Shown: positions 41,770-64,000 of the stretch, piece after piece
Position numbering within the stretch: position 1 is the first letter of the stretch
Layout of the letters: the number at the start of each line of letters is the position of its first letter
Source of the DNA: a virus
Virus record (IMG/VR): IMGVR_UViG_3300025117_000005
Location: 12,275-76,274 of that record
Length of the DNA: 64,000 nucleotides
Strand: one strand, 5' to 3'
Program-made: the position numbers and the translations under genes
The notes under the pieces: generated by a model
Databases searched by the model: none
What the model was told of the DNA's origin: nothing
The model's input: only the letters and a program-made list of their open reading frames with translations

Positions 41770-44700
41770 ATGGCTTACCACTCCAACAAATTCAAACACT
41801 GGGACGTACCGCACCCAGGACCGATACAGAGCGAGGAACCCATGACCGAAGCCGAAGAGATATTGACCGACACGGGACGCGCGGCAAACCATGATTTGTC
41901 GTTCCGCCGATGGTCCGCTTCCCGCCACGCACAATATTTTACAAATATGCGCGTCTCGAATCTTTTGTGTTCCATGGTAGCCTTGCTCCTGCCAACTCCG
42001 GAAAGCATCAAGCTCCTGCACGTCCTTGACCCCACATGCGGAACCGGACGCCTGCTCTATCCGTTCAAACGCAAGGAGGCCCGGGTTGTCGGGGTAGAAC
42101 TGGACAAAGAGCAGAGCGACAAGGCAAAGCAGCTTCTGGGAAAGGAAGCCGTCAGGCCCGGCTCAATTCTGGACTACGCGCAGTACCTGGAATCCTCTTT
42201 CGATATCGTAGTCACCAACCCGCCCTACGGTATCCTGTGGAGCCAGGAAGACACGCCATTTGAGTTTGAAGGATTGTCCTACGCAAAGAACATCGAGAGC
42301 CAGAACGCCACCCTTCAAATCTGTCACAAGGCGCTTAAAGGTCACGGCTGGATGTTTGCAATCATCCCTACCAGCTCATTCACCAACGACAAAGACAGCT
42401 CGCTCCGGCAGTACCTGTACCATAATTTTACCGTGTGCTTTCGGGCAACCCTGAACGGACTGTTTAAGGAGGAATACGGCATTGACGTCCAGGTTGACCT
42501 TGTGGCTGCGGCGCGGAAGGGGTATGGGCATGACAGGTCATCCCTTAAACCGATCGAACTGGACGCAACAGACCCGCTTTTAGAGCAAAAGGTGATTGAG
42601 GCATGGAAGCCAATTGCCCAGGCCCTGGGCATCCCCGCATATAACCTCTATGACCACGAAACCGCCGTACCTTTTTTGAACAACCTGATTGAGATGCCAG
42701 TTTCAACAAATGCTGAAATCACGGCCCGGGGTGTAAAGGCCGACCCGACCAGCCTTGCTATGATGGACTTCTATAATGAAACTTTGAGATTTTACAACCC
42801 CGTGGTAGGAAAGCCGACCGGGATCAAAGACGCTTTCCTTGAGGCCCCCGCACTCTGTAAGCGTGGAGTAGAGAAGGCTGAGGAAATATTGACGGCGATC
42901 GGTTACAATGTGACGGTCACAGATACAGCCCGGAAGAAGATTGCCGCCCTACAAGAGAAATTCAAGCTGCTATCCATCCCGATCTACCCCCCGAAGGACC
43001 ACCAGTTACTTGCCTACTTCGACGAGAGAGAGTACACGGCGAAGGCCGACGTTTATGACATCACGGAAGACAACGAGTACAGACAGGATCACCGGGATAA
43101 TGGACAGGGCAAAAACCCCGTCATCCTCTTTAAGAAGGGGAAGGCCTACCACCTGAAGCCATCATGGGTACGACAAAAGGAGTGCGCCGGGATTGAGGTT
43201 ATCGGAGAAGGCAAACAGCAGAAGACCATCACGACCGAGATCGACCGCGGGTTTCTGTCAATCTCCGTGGACACCGAGCAGGGTAACCGCGAGTTCAGGG
43301 AACCCGAGCCAATGGAGGTAGCTCTTTTTTTAGAAGCATTTGATTTACCAGTAGTGAACGACATCATGACCGAGAGGCCCGAGCAGGTCAAGGCATGGAA
43401 GGCAAAACTTCTTAAAACGTATCCACATGTTTTTACCCCTGAGTTCGACTACCAAGCCGAAGACCTGTCACGGATCCTCACAAAGACAAAATCCGCGTAC
43501 ATCGGTTACGATATGGGAGGGGGTAAGAGCGTGTCGGCCCTTGCATTTCACGCCGTCCGCAACGTCAAGCGAGTTCTGGTTGTCTGTCAATCTTCGCTGG
43601 TAGACAACTGGACCAATGAGGCCGAGAAGTTTGGATTTAAGGCCCAGAGATTAACCAACCATAAATCGATTGACCTGTTACTACAGGCCATCGACAGTAA
43701 AACCGAATCACCCGGAACGACGTTTTACATCACATCCTATGAATTCCTATCCCTTGACACCGGCAAGGTATATGACCCCTGGACCTGTGTTAAATACGAT
43801 AAGGACGGGAACGAGCGCCACCGGGTAGAGGGGAACCGAGGCCGGACATGCCAGCAGTGCAATACTGAATATTCATCCCTGCAAAGGGAGTGCCCGAAGT
43901 GCAAGGCCAAGGAGGAATGGACCGGGGAACAGTGTTTGAAATGCGGGTACAGCGCATACACTTATTCGTCGAAGCTGAAGCAGTACCCCGCATACCGAAG
44001 AATCAACAAGCTGTTTCGCTCAGTGATTATCGACGAGAGCCAGCAGGCAAAATCGAAATCCAGCTTTCGCGGCCAGGCCGTCAGAGCCCTCCACGCCAAG
44101 AGCAGACTGGAATTGACCGGCACATTGATGAAGGGCTACATCACAGACACCTTTTTCAATCTTGGATATGTGGCCCACCATAACAACCCACTGTTCCCGT
44201 ACCGGTTCGACAGGAGAGGAAGCAAGCTATTTGCGGAAGAGTTCAGCACGTTCGAATTCAAGTCAATCGAGTTTGAGGACACACTTTCAAGAGGCCGCAA
44301 AAAGGAATTACCAGAGGTCTCTAACCTGAACCGGTTCTGGAAGATCCTTGCAGCGTTCGCAGTGCGCCGCCTCAAAGACGATATGGTGAAACTCCCTCCT
44401 AAGTACCGGCGCATTATGGCCCTACCCCTGGACCCCGCACACGCGACCGAGTACGGGATTGCAGCCAGTAACGCAAAGGAAAAGATCGACCGGGAAATGA
44501 GAAAGCCAGAGGAAGAGATCAACATGGGTGTCATTTCGAAAGCCCTGTGGTCTATGAGGTTCGCGGCCACCGTCCCTAGGATCTACCCGCAGGATAACGT
44601 CAAGATCCGGAAGGCAATCGAAATCACCGCAGAGGCCAGAGCCAAAGGGGAAAAGACAATCGTATTTTCCGCACTCCGGGAAATGCAACTCACACTACAC

Positions 44701-45345
44701 CAGGAGTTTGAACGCCGAGGCATCAACCATATCTTCATCCCCTCGACCGTGCAGACGAAGGACCGATTCAGACACATCAAGCGATTTCAGGAAGACCTAG
44801 ATATCACCTGCATTATTGCCGGCCTGAACGTCCTGAACCGGGGATTTACCATCACCGCCGCAAACCATGTGATCTTTACGGACGTGGAGTACAGCCCGGA
44901 GAGCACCGACCAGGGAGAGGACCGGGCGCACAGGACAGGCCAGGACAAGCCCGTGACGTGCTGGTATCTCCTGATCGACTGGACAGACGAAGACCAGAAC
45001 ATAGATTTCAAGATGTTCGATCTCATCCACGCTAAAAAGCAGGCGATTTCCAACGCGATCGATGGCAAAGTGAGATTCGACAAGACCGCCCGTGTTCTAC
45101 GCGCCGGAGGGGATTTCTTAGCTCTTGCAAAAGCGATCAGCGGGGAAGTGGAAACCCCGGTATCGTTCGAGTACGAGAGGATAGGAGACAGCCACGCAGA
45201 ACCCCCGCAGATGCAGGAGACAACGGTTATCGAAGACGAGAAGTGGTACACCCTGTACGAGCAGGTTCACCAGGAGAAGGCAGATAAACCCGCGATCGTG
45301 AGGAAGAAGAACGGAAACGAAAACCAGTTAAGCATGTTTGGATAA
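41770..45345 (+). CDS. N6-adenine methyltransferase - SNF2 helicase fusion (DarB-like)
   Basis: LDPTCGTGRL, NPPY; GYDMGGGKS, IIDESQ, LTGT, QGEDRAHRTGQ; inserted CxxC x3 zinc ribbon. Confidence 0.9.
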   Translation: MAYHSNKFKHWDVPHPGPIQSEEPMTEAEEILTDTGRAANHDLSFRRWSASRHAQYFTNMRVSNLLCSMVALLLPTPESIKLLHVLDPTCGTGRLLYPFKRKEARVVGVELDKEQSDKAKQLLGKEAVRPGSILDYAQYLESSFDIVVTNPPYGILWSQEDTPFEFEGLSYAKNIESQNATLQICHKALKGHGWMFAIIPTSSFTNDKDSSLRQYLYHNFTVCFRATLNGLFKEEYGIDVQVDLVAAARKGYGHDRSSLKPIELDATDPLLEQKVIEAWKPIAQALGIPAYNLYDHETAVPFLNNLIEMPVSTNAEITARGVKADPTSLAMMDFYNETLRFYNPVVGKPTGIKDAFLEAPALCKRGVEKAEEILTAIGYNVTVTDTARKKIAALQEKFKLLSIPIYPPKDHQLLAYFDEREYTAKADVYDITEDNEYRQDHRDNGQGKNPVILFKKGKAYHLKPSWVRQKECAGIEVIGEGKQQKTITTEIDRGFLSISVDTEQGNREFREPEPMEVALFLEAFDLPVVNDIMTERPEQVKAWKAKLLKTYPHVFTPEFDYQAEDLSRILTKTKSAYIGYDMGGGKSVSALAFHAVRNVKRVLVVCQSSLVDNWTNEAEKFGFKAQRLTNHKSIDLLLQAIDSKTESPGTTFYITSYEFLSLDTGKVYDPWTCVKYDKDGNERHRVEGNRGRTCQQCNTEYSSLQRECPKCKAKEEWTGEQCLKCGYSAYTYSSKLKQYPAYRRINKLFRSVIIDESQQAKSKSSFRGQAVRALHAKSRLELTGTLMKGYITDTFFNLGYVAHHNNPLFPYRFDRRGSKLFAEEFSTFEFKSIEFEDTLSRGRKKELPEVSNLNRFWKILAAFAVRRLKDDMVKLPPKYRRIMALPLDPAHATEYGIAASNAKEKIDREMRKPEEEINMGVISKALWSMRFAATVPRIYPQDNVKIRKAIEITAEARAKGEKTIVFSALREMQLTLHQEFERRGINHIFIPSTVQTKDRFRHIKRFQEDLDITCIIAGLNVLNRGFTITAANHVIFTDVEYSPESTDQGEDRAHRTGQDKPVTCWYLLIDWTDEDQNIDFKMFDLIHAKKQAISNAIDGKVRFDKTARVLRAGGDFLALAKAISGEVETPVSFEYERIGDSHAEPPQMQETTVIEDEKWYTLYEQVHQEKADKPAIVRKKNGNENQLSMFG

Positions 45346-45357
45346 GGAGGAAACCCG

Positions 45358-46299
45358 ATGAACCACGCCATCACCGCCCTACTACTGCAACCCGAGGCCC
45401 AGGAGGCCCAGGAGGCCCAGGCCCCACAGTCCCATTATGACCGCTTCCAAGGGGTGTTCGAATCGTTCAAGGCATCCTACGTCAACGAGCGCCACCCCAC
45501 GGAGAACACGTTGCGCAGCCTGAAAATGGTTGTCCCCAGGTTTCTCACATTCATCTCGAAAAACCGCCAGGACGTGAACGAGATCGACAAGCAGGACGTG
45601 ATTGACTATCTCAATAGCTTGAAGGGGTTAAGGACATCCAGCCGCCTCTTGCACCTGAGAATCATCACCCTCTTTATGAACTGGCTGCACCACATGGGAA
45701 CCCTTAAGGCGCAGTGGGAAACCGTAACTTACAAAGGCCGGGCAGATGTCCCCAGAGCCCCCCAGAAGGAATTAACCAAGGAAGAGGTCGAGAAGATTCT
45801 GAATCACATGGACAATCTGAAGGGGAAGGAGAAGGTCTTGATTCAGCTACTTCTTGCTCGACCACTCCGGATAGGGGAACTGGCAAAGCTGGAGGTCCGG
45901 GACGTGGATCTGACCGGGAGAACCATCACCATCACTAAGGGGAAGAACAAAAAGACCCGGACCATCTCTATCCCAGAAACGATCTATGACGGACTGAGCC
46001 AGTTGATTGAAAGCGCAAAACTCCGACACGACCTTGTCTTTGGATTGCAGACTGTTTCGATGATCCATATCGTGAACCGGGTTCTGGAAAAGGCAGGAGT
46101 TATCAGGAATGGAAGGTCTACACACTCACTGAGGCATACGGTGATAATGAGGATGAGACACGAGGCCCATGTTGATGTCGAGGTTGTAGCTGAACTGGCA
46201 GGCAACACGCCCGGGACCATCTACCGGAATTACAATCACGTGCCGGTTGCCGCCCAGCGCCAAGCCGAACAAGATTTAGATAGACTTCTTTCTGTGTGA
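45358..46299 (+). CDS. Second tyrosine recombinase (Xer/Cre-like, with core-binding domain)
   Basis: LRIGEL, KGKNKK, THSLRHT, LAGN...YRNY. Confidence 0.9.
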   Translation: MNHAITALLLQPEAQEAQEAQAPQSHYDRFQGVFESFKASYVNERHPTENTLRSLKMVVPRFLTFISKNRQDVNEIDKQDVIDYLNSLKGLRTSSRLLHLRIITLFMNWLHHMGTLKAQWETVTYKGRADVPRAPQKELTKEEVEKILNHMDNLKGKEKVLIQLLLARPLRIGELAKLEVRDVDLTGRTITITKGKNKKTRTISIPETIYDGLSQLIESAKLRHDLVFGLQTVSMIHIVNRVLEKAGVIRNGRSTHSLRHTVIMRMRHEAHVDVEVVAELAGNTPGTIYRNYNHVPVAAQRQAEQDLDRLLSV

Positions 46300-48422: not shown

Positions 48423-48709
48423 AGACATGCTTGGATTGCCTACATTGCAAGGTCATCTTTCCTGTCAACCAGGAGAACCCACTTTTGACGGACCTCACCG
48501 TCACTACTTCGGTGAATAGTTCCTCGCAGCACGTGCGGAATCTACGGTGTGCTAAGGATCGATGGGACACTGAGACAGGGGTACAGAAGAAGACAATACG
48601 CTATGACGCGGGAGCCAAGAAGCATGCACAGAACGGAAAGAGCAGGTTCTTGAATTTAAATCGATTTTGTGAAGACCGCGAATACATGGAGGACCACGAT
48701 GAATCCTAA
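48419..48709 (+). CDS. Cys-rich hypothetical protein
   Basis: MKTCLDCLHC; coupled. Confidence 0.55.
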   Translation: MKTCLDCLHCKVIFPVNQENPLLTDLTVTTSVNSSSQHVRNLRCAKDRWDTETGVQKKTIRYDAGAKKHAQNGKSRFLNLNRFCEDREYMEDHDES

Positions 48710-49178
48710 TATTTTAGGGCTTGACCTATCCCTCGTAGAGACAGGGGCCTACTGCTACGACCCGGTAGAGGGCGGGGAGGTGTTTCAGACGATAGTAACC
48801 TCTAAACCGAACCCGGATGTAAGCGACATCCAGAGGATCAACACGATCCTTGCCGCCATTCAACTCTTGATAGATAGGGCCAACCCGAGCCTTGTTTGCA
48901 TAGAGGGATTGAGTTACGGCAGTAAGAACACGTCCTCGCTCTGCCAGCTCGCCATGCTCTCTTATGCCGTCCAAAACTATCTGCTTAAGAATGGCATCCA
49001 GTACGCGATGGTCCCCCCGACGACCCTGAAGAAGTTCACAACTGGGAAGGGAAATGCAAAGAAGGAACAGATGCTTTTGCAGATCTTCAAGAGGTGGGGA
49101 AAAGAATTCTCCAACAACAACCTTGCGGATGCTTTCGCTCTGGCAAAATGGGGCGAACGGTCGTTTCAACAAGAGTAG
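48699..49178 (+). CDS. ruvC: RuvC-like Holliday junction resolvase
   Basis: ILGLDLSL..TG, IEG, PPTTLKKFTTGKGNA.K, ADAFALA. Confidence 0.9.
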   Translation: MNPNILGLDLSLVETGAYCYDPVEGGEVFQTIVTSKPNPDVSDIQRINTILAAIQLLIDRANPSLVCIEGLSYGSKNTSSLCQLAMLSYAVQNYLLKNGIQYAMVPPTTLKKFTTGKGNAKKEQMLLQIFKRWGKEFSNNNLADAFALAKWGERSFQQE

Positions 49179-59224: not shown

Positions 59225-59253
59225 TTGACTTTTCACTCCTATGCAGATAATAT
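59225..59253 (+). promoter_or_regulatory. Promoter overlapping xis start (lambda pI-like)
   Basis: TTGACT-17-TAATAT straddling ATG 59241. Confidence 0.5.
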
Positions 59254-59540
59254 CAGTCAGAACACTGTCCGAACTCTTGAAGGTGTCCGAGGCGACCATC
59301 TACGCCAACTGGAAGCAACTGGGAGGCGTGAAGATCGGTGGCTGTATCCGCTTCGATAAAGACCTCATCCATGAGCGTTTTCTCCAAAAAGACCAAGAAG
59401 GGAATCCACTGGTACTACCAGGTGATGAAGCAGGGGGTGTACCACCGTGGAGGGGGGTACGAGTCGAAACGGGACGCCGAACTCGCGCAGGCCGACGAGC
59501 GCCGAGCTCCCGCCCCCCGTCCAGACATGGATTGTGGTGA
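59241..59540 (+). CDS. xis: Excisionase-like HTH_17 protein
   Basis: V..LSELLKVSEATIY...GVKIGGCIRF; overlaps int by 170 nt. Confidence 0.8.
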   Translation: MQIISVRTLSELLKVSEATIYANWKQLGGVKIGGCIRFDKDLIHERFLQKDQEGNPLVLPGDEAGGVPPWRGVRVETGRRTRAGRRAPSSRPPSRHGLW

Positions 59541-60474
59541 TCTCTTTGATAAATATCTGGACTATATTCAGGCCCGCAACCAGTCCGAACGATGGTACGG
59601 GGAAAAGAAGGATTTCATCAAGGATCATCTGGCCGGATGGTATCGCAGACCACCGGAGTCGATCACCTCCCATGAGATAGAAGACCTCATCCTACAGAAA
59701 GCCAAGACCTCACCGTACATGGCAAATAAGTGGCTCAAGTTCATGAAGGCAATCTTTAATTTCGCGGTAGATCGAGAGATCATAGACCGGAACCCCTGTA
59801 ATACGGTTAAAAAGGTCCAGGTTGCACAGCGGGCCAAAACCATCCCAACACCGGAAGACCTGAACAAGATTCTGTCCAAGGCAAAACCGATAGACCAGAA
59901 GTACCTGACACTAACTTTCATTCTTGCAGCGCGGCCCGGGGAGGTTCTAGACCTGAAGTGGTCAGATATCCAAGGTGACACGATTATCCTCCGGACCAGG
60001 AAACACATTGATGGAGGTCTCAGAGAGGACAGGCTGAGATTATCCCCCCTTGCCCAGGCCGTCATAGCCGAACTGCGAAGGATGACTGGGGATGACCGGG
60101 AATATGTGTTTCTCAACAAACGTACACGCAAAAGGTATCTGAGGAGGCCCAAATTGCTGCCAGGACTCTGTAGGGCAGCAGGGGTGCCCCGATATACGCT
60201 TTCGTCCCTTAGAACCCTTGCAGCTTCAGTGTTAAGCGATGAGGGGGTGCCGTTGGCAAGCATTCAGGAGAAGCTGAGGCACCAGAAGGTAACTACGACT
60301 GATCACTACGTTCGCGGATTAGAGAAAGGAAGAGGGGTTGCCGAGGCTGTTCTTGATGGGGTTGTTAATCAACAATCTATTATCGAACATTCGACAAAAT
60401 TCTCCAAAAAGCATCAAAAACGGGCTAAAACTACAGAAAATGTCGGAACGTGGCAGGATATTACGTGTGCTTAA
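59371..60474 (+). CDS. int: Tyrosine integrase with N-terminal arm-binding domain
   Basis: Probable start MSVFSKK; AARPGEV, RTRK, SSLRT (degenerate HxxR), LRH...TTTDHY; adjacent attP. Confidence 0.92.
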   Translation: MSVFSKKTKKGIHWYYQVMKQGVYHRGGGYESKRDAELAQADERRAPAPRPDMDCGDLFDKYLDYIQARNQSERWYGEKKDFIKDHLAGWYRRPPESITSHEIEDLILQKAKTSPYMANKWLKFMKAIFNFAVDREIIDRNPCNTVKKVQVAQRAKTIPTPEDLNKILSKAKPIDQKYLTLTFILAARPGEVLDLKWSDIQGDTIILRTRKHIDGGLREDRLRLSPLAQAVIAELRRMTGDDREYVFLNKRTRKRYLRRPKLLPGLCRAAGVPRYTLSSLRTLAASVLSDEGVPLASIQEKLRHQKVTTTDHYVRGLEKGRGVAEAVLDGVVNQQSIIEHSTKFSKKHQKRAKTTENVGTWQDITCA

Positions 60475-60535
60475 CATTGCGTTATTGCTTATCAATACAG
60501 TGATCTAACATCAACAAGATCACGAGACCCGCGTT

Positions 60536-60580
60536 TTCCCAAGCCGAGGGTCGCGGGTTCGAATCCCGTTGCCCGCTCCA
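60536..60580 (+). mobile_element. attP core: 3' half of tRNA-Gly(CCC)
   Basis: TTCCCAA anticodon loop, GCCGA, GCGGG-TTCGAAT-CCCGT T arm, TGCCCGC-T-CCA; 5' half absent; phage genes on both sides. Confidence 0.9.
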
Positions 60581-60584
60581 TTAC

Positions 60585-61112
60585 TTAGACGGTTTCACCT
60601 TGTTCTTGATTTGACGGAATTTCGATAATTTTTTGAACCTGAATAGGTTTTCCCAAGTAAAGGGCCGCCCGTAACAAGAGATCCAGCTTATCCTGAAAGT
60701 TCCCCAAACCCGTATTGCACTTATGACATAGTAACCCCCGAATACGACCATTTCTCCTGTGACTATGGTCTACACTTAACCTCTGTCTGTTCGGAGGCTT
60801 TCCGCATATAGCACAGAGTCCGTGTTGTTCTGCCAATAAGGTTTCATACTGTTCGTTAGAAATTGAGTAACGTCTTTGAAGATGGCGCTCACTGTCCCGA
60901 TCTGGATGTTCCCTGTAATGCTGCTTACATCGTTCTCGGTTCCTTATAACATGTTCGGGAAGGTCTGGCATCGAGATATCACGACAAGCGAGTTCAGCGT
61001 TTTGTGCATCCTCCTTAGAGTCGAACCCGCCCCCACGATGGTATTTCCCTTTGACTATAAATTGATAATACCACCGTTCCCCCTTCTTCGTCTGCTTGGC
61101 GAAAACCGACAT
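60585..61112 (-). CDS. Endonuclease VII-family nuclease fused to an integrase-type arm-binding domain
   Basis: CAICG...LSVDHSH..GRIRGLLCHKCNTGLG.FQD; N-terminal 40 aa 25/40 identical to int N-terminus. Confidence 0.9.
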   Translation of the reverse strand: MSVFAKQTKKGERWYYQFIVKGKYHRGGGFDSKEDAQNAELACRDISMPDLPEHVIRNRERCKQHYREHPDRDSERHLQRRYSISNEQYETLLAEQHGLCAICGKPPNRQRLSVDHSHRRNGRIRGLLCHKCNTGLGNFQDKLDLLLRAALYLGKPIQVQKIIEIPSNQEQGETV

Positions 61113-61458
61113 CAGATTATCCTAATGGTTATTGATCGCCACTGTGGATTCCCCATATCATAAACCCCTCCTTGCCGATTCGTATTTCTCCGATCCGATC
61201 TATCTAACCCCCCACCCTTCCCGCCAAAGAAGGATTACTTCGTCTCCTCTGATTTTTCTCTATCGGCTTTTTATCAGATTGAGATGGATGCACATAGCTA
61301 AGATGTAATGGTCTCCCTCGGAAATCATAATAAGCCGGACTTCTTCCCCGCGTTCCTCTACCTCCCATAAGCCCTCCTTTCATCTAACCGTCACCCCTCC
61401 CCCAAGGGTCACTCCGATCCGATCAATTCCCCCACGTCACCTTAGCCCCACTTCGATA

Positions 61459-63243
61459 TTATGGATTAATCACGAAACTCCCCCCGGTTCCAAGCCCGAT
61501 TGACCCTCCAGGTCCAATAGTCATAACAGTGCCTGAAACTGACGCTGCAATGTTGAATGACCATTCCCCCATCGTGCTTTCGTTTGGTACGGCGTCCTGA
61601 CAAAGGATGTTATGGGAATAGGACGCATTACAGGCGAGGCTGACCACCTGAGAGTGTGAGGTCGTTCCCGTCGTACTCATTTCTGACATCCCTGCCCAAG
61701 TGGTTGCCGTGGCATGGTAACGACAAGTGGCGTTCTCATTTGTAGTGGCCTGGAGAGTCACATTACGAGGATCTGAGGTGCATCCCTGTGAACCCGAGGG
61801 GAGAAGACCCGAGACAATAGGCCCCCCACTATATTCTTCGGCCCCTATGTCAGGAGCGGCACCCAAAAGCACCTGAACCCCGTCTGATTTCTTGTAGAGC
61901 CACACTGAATCTCCATCATTCCTGGATATTCCAGCAGCTAACGTAATTGTATTAGTGCTGTAATCTATTGAAGAAATCTGAGCAGTATTCCCTATAGAGC
62001 CGACTGCTATCCAATCTGCACTTGCTCCGCCCCATCCAGGTTGAAAGAACTCGGCTTTACCAACAATTAGCGAAGTACCAGAACCCGTATCCGCCGCCGC
62101 AACGGTCGTAAGTGGGCCACCTGTATCAATTGCAGGAGAGCCAGCTTGGAGCGAAAAGTTGTTATTTAAGGGATCAATAAGGAGTGGATTTTGATTCTTT
62201 ACGGCTCCCACTTCGTTGGATGCCCCGCCGCTAAAGGTCATCGTTCCGCTTGCGCTGTAATAAAGATTATAACTCTGTGCGCCTCCTGTGCTGAAATAAA
62301 ACCCTCTCGCACCTGATGTTTTCATGGCTGTATCGTGTAAATTGTTGATGGCGCTTGAATTAGTAGAAGCGTTGAGAGCACAACTTGCATCCTCCCAAGT
62401 GAAAGTGCCTTCAGACAGGTAGCTGAATGTGTTGTTATAGACAACATTCCTAGTAGTTCCACTCGCCTGCTGATTAGCATCTATATAAACACCCAGTGAC
62501 CCTATGCTATGGACCTTATTATACCGGAATATCATACCAATTGGAGGAATGGCACAGGTACTCGTACCATTGACCAACGCAAAGTGCTCATTTCCGTTTC
62601 CAGTTATGTTTATAAATACATTATTTTCTATGAGTCCGTACTGTGCTGATTTTATGTCAACTGTTGGGCCTGAACAGAAGGATTGCCAAAAGTCCATATG
62701 CTCCGCACCGGATGCGGTCATCCCGATGGCAGTATTATTACGAATGGTCCATCTTATCCCAAACTGCCTTACAATATCATTCCCCCAGTTAGAAAAGGAA
62801 TTTCCTGAAATCAAGATATCATCGCCTTTCATACTCAAGGCAATACCGCTCCCACCACTCCCTGTAAACGTATTGTCCACAACCTGCAAATTGCTATGTG
62901 CAGCCCCTGAGTAGGTGCTTCCAGTGGTTATACCACCACCAGTGACCGCAAATCCCTGAATAACAATATAGTCGGCGGTTAGGGCAATGCTACTCGAAAG
63001 CGCAGGAGATTGCCCCGCTGCTGCTCGAATAGTAATAAAGTTTCCCGCCGTTCCACTCGTCGTTTGGGTCCAGCCGGAATACGTGCCGTTGTAGACCTCG
63101 CAGATGTCGCCTGCCGAGACTGCATTGGCGCAAGTACCCGGAGCAGAGTAATCCCCACCACTGGTCTTGACCGTGTAGGTAGCCCCAAAAGCCTGACTAT
63201 TGAATAGAATGCTAAAAAGACACAGTAAGATTAGTTTTTTCAT
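61459..63243 (-). CDS. Secreted right-handed parallel beta-helix protein (pectin-lyase-like, choice-of-anchor Q-like)
   Basis: Signal peptide MKKLILLCLFSILFNSQAFG; repeated I.NN.F units; FSLQAGSPAIDTG and APDIGA.EY. Confidence 0.85.
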   Translation of the reverse strand: MKKLILLCLFSILFNSQAFGATYTVKTSGGDYSAPGTCANAVSAGDICEVYNGTYSGWTQTTSGTAGNFITIRAAAGQSPALSSSIALTADYIVIQGFAVTGGGITTGSTYSGAAHSNLQVVDNTFTGSGGSGIALSMKGDDILISGNSFSNWGNDIVRQFGIRWTIRNNTAIGMTASGAEHMDFWQSFCSGPTVDIKSAQYGLIENNVFINITGNGNEHFALVNGTSTCAIPPIGMIFRYNKVHSIGSLGVYIDANQQASGTTRNVVYNNTFSYLSEGTFTWEDASCALNASTNSSAINNLHDTAMKTSGARGFYFSTGGAQSYNLYYSASGTMTFSGGASNEVGAVKNQNPLLIDPLNNNFSLQAGSPAIDTGGPLTTVAAADTGSGTSLIVGKAEFFQPGWGGASADWIAVGSIGNTAQISSIDYSTNTITLAAGISRNDGDSVWLYKKSDGVQVLLGAAPDIGAEEYSGGPIVSGLLPSGSQGCTSDPRNVTLQATTNENATCRYHATATTWAGMSEMSTTGTTSHSQVVSLACNASYSHNILCQDAVPNESTMGEWSFNIAASVSGTVMTIGPGGSIGLGTGGSFVINP

Positions 63244-63251
63244 GTTTTCCC

Positions 63252-64000
63252 CTACGGTGTACTCATGTAAACATAGCCGAATTCGATGTCAATGGCCTCT
63301 CCAGCTCCCATACTTCCTAGATTCCCCAAATGTAGATACTGACCATCCGTCCCTTCCGTTGTGGTAAAGGCGCACTCCCCTGCAACATCACAGTCTGTTC
63401 CAGGGGTATATTGGATGTACGAGTTCTCCGGCGTCGCGTCCGAGTGAATCAGCACTTCGTACCACGTTTCAAGGCTGATATTTTTGACAGTACTGTCTGT
63501 CGTAGAGTTGATGCGTATCTGATAGGTTCCGTTGTTGTTTCGGAACTCTAACCAGTAAACAACGTTAGTTGAAGGGTCAGTCCCATTGGACCATGTAAGC
63601 AATGCAGCATAGGAGTAGTTGTCCAGTGTGATCGAGTTGATCCTAAAGCTCAGGCCAACATCAAAGTTCACCTCGGACGTATCGATAGTGGATCCACGAT
63701 TCCATCTGGTCCTGGAGTTAGCCGCACTGTCGATAATGTTCAGCCCCTCGGTGCATGAGCCTGTGGGGGGAGTCCCAGTTAGTGTGGCGTCCTCATTGAC
63801 GGTTCCACCCGACCCTATAGTCTCAGTCCAGGTGTTTTCATATCCTGCGCCCAAGAAACCCTCGTTCAGTTCATCCCCGGTTGCCGGGGTGGAACAAGCT
63901 GGACTGCCTACCACGATTGCTCCAGCAACACCTTGAGTAGTCCTGGCCTCCTGCCATTGAGTAAAGGCAGGAGAAGCCAGTAACAAAAAGAATAAACAAA
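63252..64000 (-). CDS. Secreted beta-sandwich (lectin/LamG-like) protein, start outside window
   Basis: ...CLFFLLLASPAFTQ signal-like region at the edge; ISLETWYEV motif; acidic Thr/Gly-rich. Confidence 0.6.
   Translation of the reverse strand, partial: CLFFLLLASPAFTQWQEARTTQGVAGAIVVGSPACSTPATGDELNEGFLGAGYENTWTETIGSGGTVNEDATLTGTPPTGSCTEGLNIIDSAANSRTRWNRGSTIDTSEVNFDVGLSFRINSITLDNYSYAALLTWSNGTDPSTNVVYWLEFRNNNGTYQIRINSTTDSTVKNISLETWYEVLIHSDATPENSYIQYTPGTDCDVAGECAFTTTEGTDGQYLHLGNLGSMGAGEAIDIEFGYVYMSTP

What the first reader, a model, noticed from the sequence alone, without database searches (positions are those of the whole stretch)
59371..61112. Integrase and an EndoVII nuclease face each other across attP and share the same arm-binding domain
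Seen: Int begins MSVFSKKTKKGIHWYYQVMKQGVYHRGGGYESKRDAELAQ. The convergent gene begins MSVFAKQTKKGERWYYQFIVKGKYHRGGGFDSKEDAQNAE (25/40 identical, no gaps, many synonymous codon differences) and continues as an Endonuclease VII domain with intact motifs. Its stop lies 4 bp from the attP CCA. Known: the N-terminal three-stranded domain of lambda/Tn916-type integrases reads arm-type sites; T4 EndoVII resolves Holliday junctions, and EndoVII-type domains also occur in homing endonucleases. Inference: a nuclease addressed to this phage's own att arms, acting as a dedicated resolvase for integration/excision intermediates, a weapon against attP of related phages, or a homing element that spreads the int-attP module. 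The genome already encodes RuvC, which argues for a specialised role. I do not know of a description of this arrangement.
Basis: partly seen in the sequence, partly recalled or inferred. Interest (0 to 1): 0.9.

Follow-up and report, generated by a model that had tools for sequence, protein, structure and literature searches.

The report
Integrase-headed EndoVII nuclease beside attP
A complete groundwater phage encodes, right against its chromosomal attachment site, an endonuclease VII-type DNA cutter whose DNA-binding head is an old copy of its integrase's site-recognition domain; this looks like a rare retargeted nuclease aimed at attachment-site DNA, but what it cuts is untested.

Summary
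Int (59371-60474, +) and a convergent 175-aa protein (60585-61112, -) share a 49-residue N-terminus (55% identical, E 2e-15). The rest of the small protein is an intact Endonuclease_7 domain (Pfam E 3e-21). Between the genes lies the 3' half of tRNA-Gly(CCC), 60536-60580, and the nuclease stop codon starts 4 nt after its CCA. The record is a complete circular 76-kb phage.

The shared domain is an old paralogue: 17 of 27 conserved residues use different codons. It models as a three-stranded sheet plus helix, like Arm-DNA-bind_4/AP2 integrase heads.

Ordinary relatives of the nuclease carry a zinc-ribbon N-module instead. Among 1.8-5.8 billion proteins I found only one other protein with this fusion (P0002, 47% identical), and its context could not be fetched.

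A homodimer is predicted. Five copies of TTNTTGAT cluster in the attP arms. The phage also has RuvC.

Best reading (0.45): a nuclease addressed to integrase arm sites, with a selfish or competitive role. That resembles AP2-HNH homing endonucleases and the chimeric nuclease Odn.

A resolvase role in integration is not excluded. Linkage to int/attP in homologues, and co-variation, could not be tested.

This scan has noted integrase-head nucleases with other nuclease folds beside attP in other genomes. I did not check those notes.

The parts
59241..59540 (+). Excisionase-like helix-turn-helix ORF (99 aa) that overlaps the 5' end of int in another frame
   Evidence: ORF list. The same overlapping ORF, with a similar N-terminus and a conserved end (RHGLW/NGLW/RHGLL), precedes the related integrases in L013 and L014. 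No family hit for its first 53 aa in PHROGs.
59371..60474 (+). Tyrosine integrase, 367 aa. Residues 1-46 form the arm-type domain. Residues 332-367 form a tail absent from the relative L014.
   Evidence: Pfam Phage_integrase E 1.3e-12. PHROG_1 integrase E 9e-41. Alignment with L013/L014/L015 integrases.
60350..60610 (.). Candidate arm-type sites: TTNTTGAT at 60350(+), 60368(-), 60413(-), 60510(-) and 60603(+). Also an inverted repeat, 60379-60398 / 60610-60629, flanking the core.
   Evidence: 5 of the window's 23 matches fall within 261 bp. This is the top cluster, tied with two others, among 16,244 motifs of this form in the genome. Inverted repeat I2. Binding is not shown.
60536..60580 (+). 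attP core: 3' half of tRNA-Gly(CCC), from anticodon loop to CCA
   Evidence: Sequence. Comparison with tRNA-Gly genes of more than 120 species. The T arm is seen by Rfam. No complete tRNA found.
60585..61112 (-). Arm-domain/EndoVII fusion nuclease, 175 aa plus stop
   Evidence: AlphaFold2 model with mean pLDDT 87.7.
60975..61112 (-). N-domain, residues 1-46: three strands plus a helix, paralogue of the Int arm-type domain
   Evidence: E 2e-15 to the Int N-terminus. Pfam Arm-DNA-bind_4 E 0.0029, below the cut-off. Foldseek 3rmp_C and 3jtz integrase arm domains, probability 0.96 and 0.89, rmsd 2.5 and 2.9 A. AP2 domain 7et4, Z 5.7. ESM Atlas TM 0.80-0.83 to Arm-DNA-bind_4 integrases.
60645..60887 (-). 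Endonuclease VII (His-Me finger) core, residues 76-156
   Evidence: Pfam PF02945. T4 EndoVII 1en7: Z 5.6, rmsd 1.7 A, 35% identity over 51 residues. Foldseek probability 1.00 to 2qnf. Predicted dimer interface at residues 101-155.
60588..60644 (-). Low-confidence C-terminal tail (residues 157-175), absent from P0002. It is read across the presumed P' arm.
   Evidence: pLDDT 56-60. Alignment A3. Holds the TTCTTGAT at 60603 and the right arm of the inverted repeat.
61113..61458 (.). 346-bp spacer upstream of the nuclease gene. It has AGGA 9 nt before the ATG and a sixth TTATTGAT at 61129.
   Evidence: Sequence, motif list. No consensus promoter found on the minus strand.
48669..49178 (+). RuvC-type resolvase (context: the phage has another junction resolvase)
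   Evidence: PF02075, 37.2 bits, above the cut-off.

Best explanation
The gene encodes a probably dimeric endonuclease VII-family (His-Me finger) nuclease. The zinc-ribbon N-module usual in this family has been replaced by an old paralogue of the integrase's arm-type DNA-binding domain. SHOWN: the two-domain architecture, the intact catalytic and zinc residues, the age of the duplication, conservation of the fusion in a second diverged protein, and the position flush against attP. INFERRED: the head binds the same kind of arm-type sites as integrases of this lineage (candidate TTNTTGAT repeats in the attP arms), so the nuclease is delivered to int/attP modules and cuts DNA there. The most likely biological role is selfish or competitive. 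One version is homing-type spread of itself with the flanking int-attP and tail-fibre modules during co-infection. Another is destruction of the attP region of rival phages that use the same integrase type. A step in normal integration or excision is less likely.
For: Head homologous to Int (E 2e-15), with the integrase arm/AP2 fold. Identity is concentrated in the three strands (15/24) rather than the helix (5/14), read from the alignment and the model. This fits a retained DNA-reading surface. The nuclease is intact. The copy is old and under selection: synonymous sites are scrambled, and P0002 keeps both domains at 47% identity. The head is a domain swap. Of 3820 relatives in the profile search and the top 150 in the exhaustive search, the members I inspected carry a CxxC...CxxC N-module or a second EndoVII domain, and only P0001 and P0002 carry the head. 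The folded part of the gene ends about 65 bp from the core, leaving room for a P' arm. The candidate sites cluster there and in the Int tail. The homodimer prediction scores 0.67 against a best control of 0.06. That mark was reached by 20 of 30 proteins solved as pairs and by 1 of 23 solved as single chains. The runs agree in at least 61% of contacts and partner pLDDT is 64. T4 EndoVII is a solved dimer, so this pass may be from memory. RuvC, RecT and an SbcC-like protein are already present. GC3 of the nuclease (0.44) and the adjacent fibre-like gene (0.45) is below the 0.55-0.70 of most genes measured. This fits an exchanged module. Nuclease genes at exchange boundaries, AP2-HNH homing endonucleases and the chimeric nuclease Odn are precedents (PMC10448857, PMC8263062, PMC5714182).
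Against: There is no binding or cleavage data. No related genome that lacks the gene was found, so mobility is not shown: all 13 sequencing runs that hold the region hold most or all of its sampled words, and the two of them that were laid carry identical sequence. The phage's own attP carries the presumed target sites, and self-protection is unexplained. The arm-site motif was chosen after looking, and only about 0.01 of its significance survives correction. Only two members of the fusion are known, so linkage to attP rests on one locus. The EndoVII fold is best known for junction resolution, which also fits the rival resolvase reading.
Confidence: 0.45

Rival explanations
1. Dedicated junction resolvase for site-specific recombination. 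The head docks the EndoVII dimer on the arm sites of the intasome, where it resolves or aborts Holliday intermediates made by Int.
For: The EndoVII fold and the predicted dimer are those of a junction resolvase. The head is shared with Int. This Int has Ser in place of the first conserved His of the H-x-x-R box (LSSLRT against FHSLRH, FHDIRA and FHNLRH in relatives). From general knowledge of Flp and Cre mutants, loss of that His can slow joining or let junctions accumulate.
Against: Tyrosine recombinases resolve their own junctions. Related integrases L013 and L014 keep the His, and no nuclease was seen in what their short contigs show. The fusion is extremely rare, while arm-type integrases are very common. 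The phage already has RuvC.
Confidence: 0.13
2. An ordinary phage debranching or packaging endonuclease VII. The N-domain is only a general DNA-binding handle, and the position beside attP is incidental, at the junction of the early and late arms.
For: EndoVII genes are common in phages (1969 INPHARED records). In the viral contigs I fetched, their N-modules vary. The gene lies at the end of the minus-strand late/tail block.
Against: The head is a specific paralogue of the neighbouring Int, not a generic module. The genome holds exactly two copies of it, and they face each other across attP. RuvC is present.
Confidence: 0.2
3. Regulator or antagonist of integration. The protein competes with Int for arm sites, or represses its own or neighbouring genes, and the nuclease activity is secondary.
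For: The head is shared. A sixth TTATTGAT lies 17 nt upstream of its own start codon. Stand-alone arm-domain proteins exist in viruses: an Atlas cluster of 183 members, 69 aa.
Against: All catalytic and zinc residues are conserved in both fused proteins. That is not expected if cutting were dispensable. An excisionase-like gene is already present.
Confidence: 0.08

Closest known systems
Odn (Gp88) of Vibrio phage ICP1, origin-directed nuclease (Barth, Nguyen & Seed 2021, eLife, PMC8263062)
   Same: A chimeric phage nuclease whose DNA-binding domain is a homologue of another mobile-element protein's site-binding domain. The nuclease is therefore delivered to that protein's repeated binding sites.
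   Different: Odn joins a T5orf172 nuclease to a RepA_N-type origin-binding domain copied from its parasite PLE, and its activity was shown experimentally. Here the nuclease is EndoVII-type, the head is a paralogue of the phage's own integrase, and nothing is tested.
AP2-domain HNH homing endonucleases (Magnani et al. 2004, as cited in PMC5714182 and PMC10448857; IPA-HNH genes of ICP1)
   Same: A His-Me finger nuclease joined to a three-stranded AP2/integrase-type DNA-binding domain. They are found in phages and are selfish genes at boundaries of genetic exchange.
   Different: Those have an HNH_3-like domain at the N-terminus and AP2 at the C-terminus. Here the order is reversed, the nuclease is Pfam Endonuclease_7 (His-Me group 13), the head is of Arm-DNA-bind_4 type and paralogous to the adjacent Int, and the gene abuts attP.
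Phage T4 endonuclease VII (gp49; PDB 1en7, 2qnf)
   Same: The catalytic core, zinc site and D-H...H...N motif. Z 5.6, rmsd 1.7 A, 35% identity over 51 residues. A dimer is predicted.
   Different: T4 gp49 has no sequence-reading head and has a long C-terminal dimerisation domain; it recognises DNA structure. This protein has a helical linker and an integrase head, and ends soon after the core.
Hpy99I restriction endonuclease (PDB 3fc3; same His-Me group, PMC5714182)
   Same: It shows that the EndoVII core can act as a sequence-specific double-strand cutter when joined to a DNA-recognition part. There is a weak PADLOC Type II REase hit (E 1.6e-4).
   Different: The recognition domains are unrelated, and it belongs to a restriction-modification system rather than an att module.
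Arm-type N-terminal domains of tyrosine integrases (Pfam Arm-DNA-bind_4; HPI/P4-like Int arm domains 3jtz, 3rmp)
   Same: The fold, and direct homology to the N-terminus of a real integrase.
   Different: Here the domain is detached from the recombinase and joined to a nuclease.

Membership tests
Endonuclease_7 (Pfam PF02945; His-Me finger group 13) | Profile match above the curated cut-off | tested here: met
   75.4 bits against a cut-off of 23.6, E 3.4e-21. Also found by the whole-genome family search, 77 bits.
Endonuclease_7 (Pfam PF02945; His-Me finger group 13) | Four zinc cysteines and the catalytic Asp-His...His...Asn | tested here: met
   C100, C103, C129, C132, D115, H116, H118 and N133. 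Columns are nearly invariant in 43 sequences and conserved in P0002.
Endonuclease_7 (Pfam PF02945; His-Me finger group 13) | beta-beta-alpha-metal fold like T4 EndoVII | tested here: met
   Model pLDDT 87.7. 1en7: Z 5.6, rmsd 1.7 A, 51 residues. Foldseek probability 1.00.
Endonuclease_7 (Pfam PF02945; His-Me finger group 13) | Cleavage of Holliday junctions or branched DNA | not testable with these tools
   Needs a nuclease assay.
Integrase arm-type DNA-binding domain (Arm-DNA-bind_4 / AP2-integrase fold) | Sequence homology to the N-terminus of a tyrosine integrase | tested here: met
   E 2e-15 to the adjacent Int. Related heads are found on the integrases of L013 and L014.
Integrase arm-type DNA-binding domain (Arm-DNA-bind_4 / AP2-integrase fold) | Pfam profile match above the cut-off | tested here: inconclusive
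   PF14657: 17.6 bits against a cut-off of 22.3, E 0.0029. The profile of the two heads finds no solved structure by sequence.
Integrase arm-type DNA-binding domain (Arm-DNA-bind_4 / AP2-integrase fold) | Three-stranded antiparallel sheet packed on one helix | tested here: met
   Strands 3-8, 11-20 and 23-30, helix 33-46, pLDDT 92-97. 3rmp_C and 3jtz. AP2 7et4, Z 5.7. TM 0.80-0.83 to Arm-DNA-bind_4 integrases.
Integrase arm-type DNA-binding domain (Arm-DNA-bind_4 / AP2-integrase fold) | Binds repeated arm-type sites in attP | not testable with these tools
   Only candidate repeats are available.
Homing endonuclease gene | Present or absent between otherwise related genomes, with a target in the empty allele | tested here: inconclusive
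   No related genome with the int-attP junction was available. The contigs laid from X1 and X12 carry the same allele, and X14 and X16 gave only short fragments with no differences. Viral, metagenome and genome scans gave no further locus.
Odn-like chimeric targeting nuclease | Nuclease whose DNA-binding domain is homologous to that of a protein that binds the target element's repeats | tested here: met
   Head homologous to the Int arm domain.
Odn-like chimeric targeting nuclease | Cleaves the site bound by the donor protein and so harms a rival element | not testable with these tools
   Needs cleavage and infection assays.

The most novel reading that the evidence does not exclude
The dimeric nuclease uses its two integrase heads to recognise the P and P' arms only when they lie together, as in free attP. 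It would then leave the resident prophage's attL and attR alone and cut incoming or excised DNA of phages that share this integrase type. That would be an attachment-site-directed exclusion or homing system. Alternatively, it is an arm-docked resolvase that completes recombination for an integrase lacking the first catalytic-box histidine.
Probability: 0.15. Interest if true: 0.85.

Novelty: new variant of a known kind. Interest (0 to 1): 0.6.

Why it matters
If the head does deliver the nuclease to arm-type sites, attachment sites join replication origins (Odn) as addresses that phage nucleases can read by copying another protein's DNA-binding domain. That would give a direct mechanism for conflict between, or co-spread of, int-attP modules among temperate phages competing for one tRNA site. 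It would also offer a natural example of a junction-resolvase fold retargeted by a domain swap. It is testable with standard assays: EMSA, then cleavage of attP, attL, attR and junctions, then co-infection. Its weight is limited by rarity, because only two proteins with this exact fusion were found.

Tried and rejected
The 177,824-bp contig that holds this protein and the 1,116-bp contig of P0002 could not be read. This blocked the linkage and co-variation tests.

2. The search for more fused proteins found none beyond P0001 and P0002.
- Word-index search with the whole protein.
- Word-index search with residues 1-50 only (self only).
- Word-index search with the P0001+P0002 profile.
- Exhaustive HMMER against 1.84 billion representatives.
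- High-coverage hits P0225, P0255, P0280 and others were read and carry zinc-ribbon N-modules.

3. DNA scans.
- The WYYQ-x6-YHRGGG pattern gave 0 matches in viral contigs and 0 in genome contigs.
- EndoVII, Int and P0002 against viral contigs gave only ordinary EndoVII genes or distant integrases.
- The metagenome scan with the two heads gave three integrases and no nuclease.
- INPHARED tblastn: no record covers residues 1-25, and the head alone finds nothing.
- In 401 genomes of the phylum of L021, the fused form was not found in those searched. One head hit is a frameshifted integrase.

4. Host and integrated form.
- Laid contigs showed only foreign tRNA-Gly genes with 1-7 mismatches over the core, and no attL or attR junction.
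- L021, a deltaproteobacterial MAG contig that ends exactly at the start of the core, shares the anticodon-stem strand. That MAG has no close Int or nuclease. The host stays unknown.

5. A 22-nt near-repeat of the anticodon-loop region inside the nuclease gene (60647-60668) was rejected as chance. It encodes the conserved AAxYL helix, and an 11-mer match is expected about 0.3 times in this region (my own estimate).

6. PADLOC gave only weak REase and PtuB hits. Promoter and terminator scans were at background. Rfam sees only the T arm.

7. ESM Atlas search by features gave only ordinary EndoVII clusters.
Full report
What the record is. The window is bases 12275-76274 of a 76,274-bp virus record whose ends overlap by 128 bp. 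An independent assembly of a groundwater run holds it as a 76,175-bp circle, and it is rated 100% complete. Early and replication genes run on the plus strand up to int. These include an MTase-SNF2 fusion, a second Xer-like recombinase, RuvC, an SbcC-like protein, RecT and a TSCPD protein. Structural and tail genes run on the minus strand. The finding sits where the two arms meet.

The observation. Int (59371-60474, +; Pfam Phage_integrase, PHROG_1) and a convergent 175-aa ORF (60585-61112, -) both begin MSVF. They align without gaps for 49 residues: 27 identical, E 2e-15. The rest of the small protein is a clear Endonuclease_7 domain (E 3.4e-21). Its zinc cysteines and the Asp-His...His...Asn motif lie in the family's nearly invariant columns. 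Between the genes, 60536-60580 is the anticodon loop to CCA of a tRNA-Gly(CCC). The 30 nt before its CCA occur unchanged in tRNA-Gly genes of more than 120 species. No whole tRNA is present. Because the genome is circular and unintegrated, this is attP. The nuclease stop codon begins 4 nt after the CCA.

Nature of the shared domain.
- At the DNA level the two heads are 56% identical. Seventeen of the 27 conserved residues use different codons. This is an old duplication kept by selection on the protein, not a recent rearrangement or an assembly artefact.
- The genome holds exactly two copies.
- An AlphaFold2 model (mean pLDDT 87.7; 92-97 over the head) gives strands 3-8, 11-20 and 23-30 and helix 33-46.
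- Foldseek matches the head to the arm-binding domains of P4-like and HPI integrases (3rmp_C, 3jtz; probability 0.96 and 0.89). The second-look aligner matches it to an AP2 domain (Z 5.7). dsRBD-like folds score similarly.
- The ESM Atlas model of the same protein matches the N-termini of Arm-DNA-bind_4 integrases at TM 0.80-0.83.
- The Pfam Arm-DNA-bind_4 hit is below its cut-off. Assignment to the arm-type class therefore rests on homology to real integrase N-termini and on fold.
- Identity between the two heads is higher in the strands (15/24) than in the helix (5/14). From knowledge of AP2 and integrase arm domains, the strands are where DNA is read.

Nature of the nuclease part.
- Residues 85-137 superpose on T4 EndoVII (1en7: Z 5.6, rmsd 1.7 A, 35% identity).
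- A homodimer is predicted: score 0.67 against a best control of 0.06. That mark was reached by 20 of 30 proteins solved as pairs and by 1 of 23 solved as single chains. Runs agree in at least 61% of contacts and pLDDT is 64. The interface involves residues 101-155. T4 EndoVII and Hpy99I are solved dimers, so this pass may reflect memory of those structures.

How unusual the fusion is.
- EndoVII-domain proteins are abundant: 105,204 hits in 1.84 billion representatives and 1969 phage records.
- The relatives I read carry a CxxC...CxxC zinc-ribbon-like N-module or tandem EndoVII domains.
- Only one other protein, P0002 (160 aa, 47% identical over both domains), has the integrase head.
- The fusion is therefore a domain swap that has survived substantial divergence, but it is very rare.
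- On 40 aligned head positions, the nuclease head matches its own Int at 25, P0002 at 23 and two other integrases at 21 each. The two nuclease heads share F30 and N38. The three integrases share S5, K7, I12, Y30 and R34. The fusion thus predates the split between the two nucleases. Evidence for co-variation with the neighbouring Int is at most marginal.

Geometry of attP.
- Compared with its relative L014, Int has a 36-residue C-terminal tail. Compared with P0002, the nuclease has a 19-residue low-confidence tail. Both tails are read across the DNA flanking the core.
- In that same stretch lie five TTNTTGAT motifs (60350-60610), out of 23 in the window. An inverted repeat (60379-60398 / 60610-60629) also brackets the core.
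- Among all 16,244 motifs of that form, this is one of three with a cluster of five. The chance that one of the three falls on attP is about 0.01.
- These are candidate arm-type sites and no more than that.
- The folded part of the nuclease starts about 65 bp from the core, so the gene lies just outside a lambda-sized P' arm.
- By inference, integration would place the nuclease gene next to the rebuilt tRNA-Gly at one prophage end and int at the other.

Interpretation.
- The architecture says 'EndoVII cutter delivered by an integrase-type head'. The addressed sites are most simply the arm-type sites of this integrase lineage.
- I favour a selfish or competitive role (0.45). The phage already has RuvC and a recombination set, and tyrosine recombinases resolve their own junctions. 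The fusion is far too rare to be a standard part of integration.
- The gene and the adjacent fibre-like gene have low GC3, and the gene lies at a module boundary. Phage nuclease genes are known to sit at such boundaries (PMC10448857).
- Published precedents exist for both halves of the idea. AP2-HNH homing endonucleases are described in PMC5714182 and PMC10448857. The chimeric nuclease Odn borrows an origin-binding domain to cut its target (PMC8263062).
- The resolvase reading (0.13) keeps some weight. This Int has Ser where relatives have the first His of the H-x-x-R box.
- An ordinary debranching enzyme with an incidental head (0.20) and an arm-site regulator (0.08) remain possible.

No allele lacking the gene and no integrated form was seen. 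The host is unknown. One deltaproteobacterial MAG contig ends exactly at the core and shares its stem strand, but that MAG lacks the phage.

Relation to earlier notes of this scan. Earlier notes describe integrase heads fused to HNH, GIY-YIG/T5orf172 and PacI-type nucleases beside attP in other genomes. I did not test them and they are not counted as evidence. If they are right, this is the Endonuclease_7 member of a recurring class that does not depend on nuclease fold, and that would favour the targeting reading over the resolvase one. No paper I could search describes an integrase arm domain on an EndoVII nuclease.

Verdict. This is a new variant of a known kind, namely modular or chimeric His-Me nucleases. 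Interest 0.6.

Noticed in passing
window 60181-60215 (Int residues about 271-282): The integrase has Ser in place of the first conserved His of the H-x-x-R box (LSSLRT). Relatives L013, L014 and L015 and the phage's second recombinase keep His. The Arg, the later His and the Tyr are present.
   Followed up: partly
window 59241-59540: An excisionase-like ORF overlaps the first ~170 nt of int in another frame. The overlap and the ORF's end (RHGLW/NGLW/RHGLL) are conserved in L013 and L014, so the Int head may be dual-coding DNA. GC3 of the Int head is 0.80.
   Followed up: partly
window 41770-46299: A 1191-aa N6-methylase/SNF2 helicase fusion (ZorD/DpdE-like in PADLOC) is followed 12 bp later by a second Xer-like tyrosine recombinase that has no arm domain.
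   Followed up: partly
window 61113-61458: A 346-bp non-coding spacer lies upstream of the nuclease gene. It has two pairs of direct repeats (61188-61222 / 61382-61427) and a sixth TTATTGAT next to the ribosome-binding site.
   Followed up: no
window 61459-63243 and 63252-63986: Two large minus-strand ORFs next to the nuclease (594 and 244 aa) have no Pfam or PHROG family. They are Gly/Ser/Thr-rich and fibre-like, and the 594-aa gene shares the low GC3 (0.45) of the nuclease gene.
   Followed up: no
L169 (G207:C3:5555840-5558968): A bacterial genome of the sampled phylum carries a frameshifted integrase (245 + 124 aa pieces) with a related head. An excisionase-like ORF lies upstream and a transposase-like ORF beside it.
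   Followed up: no
EndoVII relatives P0005, P0007, P0225, P0255 and others: Many single-domain EndoVII proteins share a conserved N-terminal CxxC-x(n)-F-x(6-8)-DG-x(3-4)-CxxC module. It is probably a zinc-ribbon DNA-binding part, and no Pfam family for it was reported by the tools.
   Followed up: no
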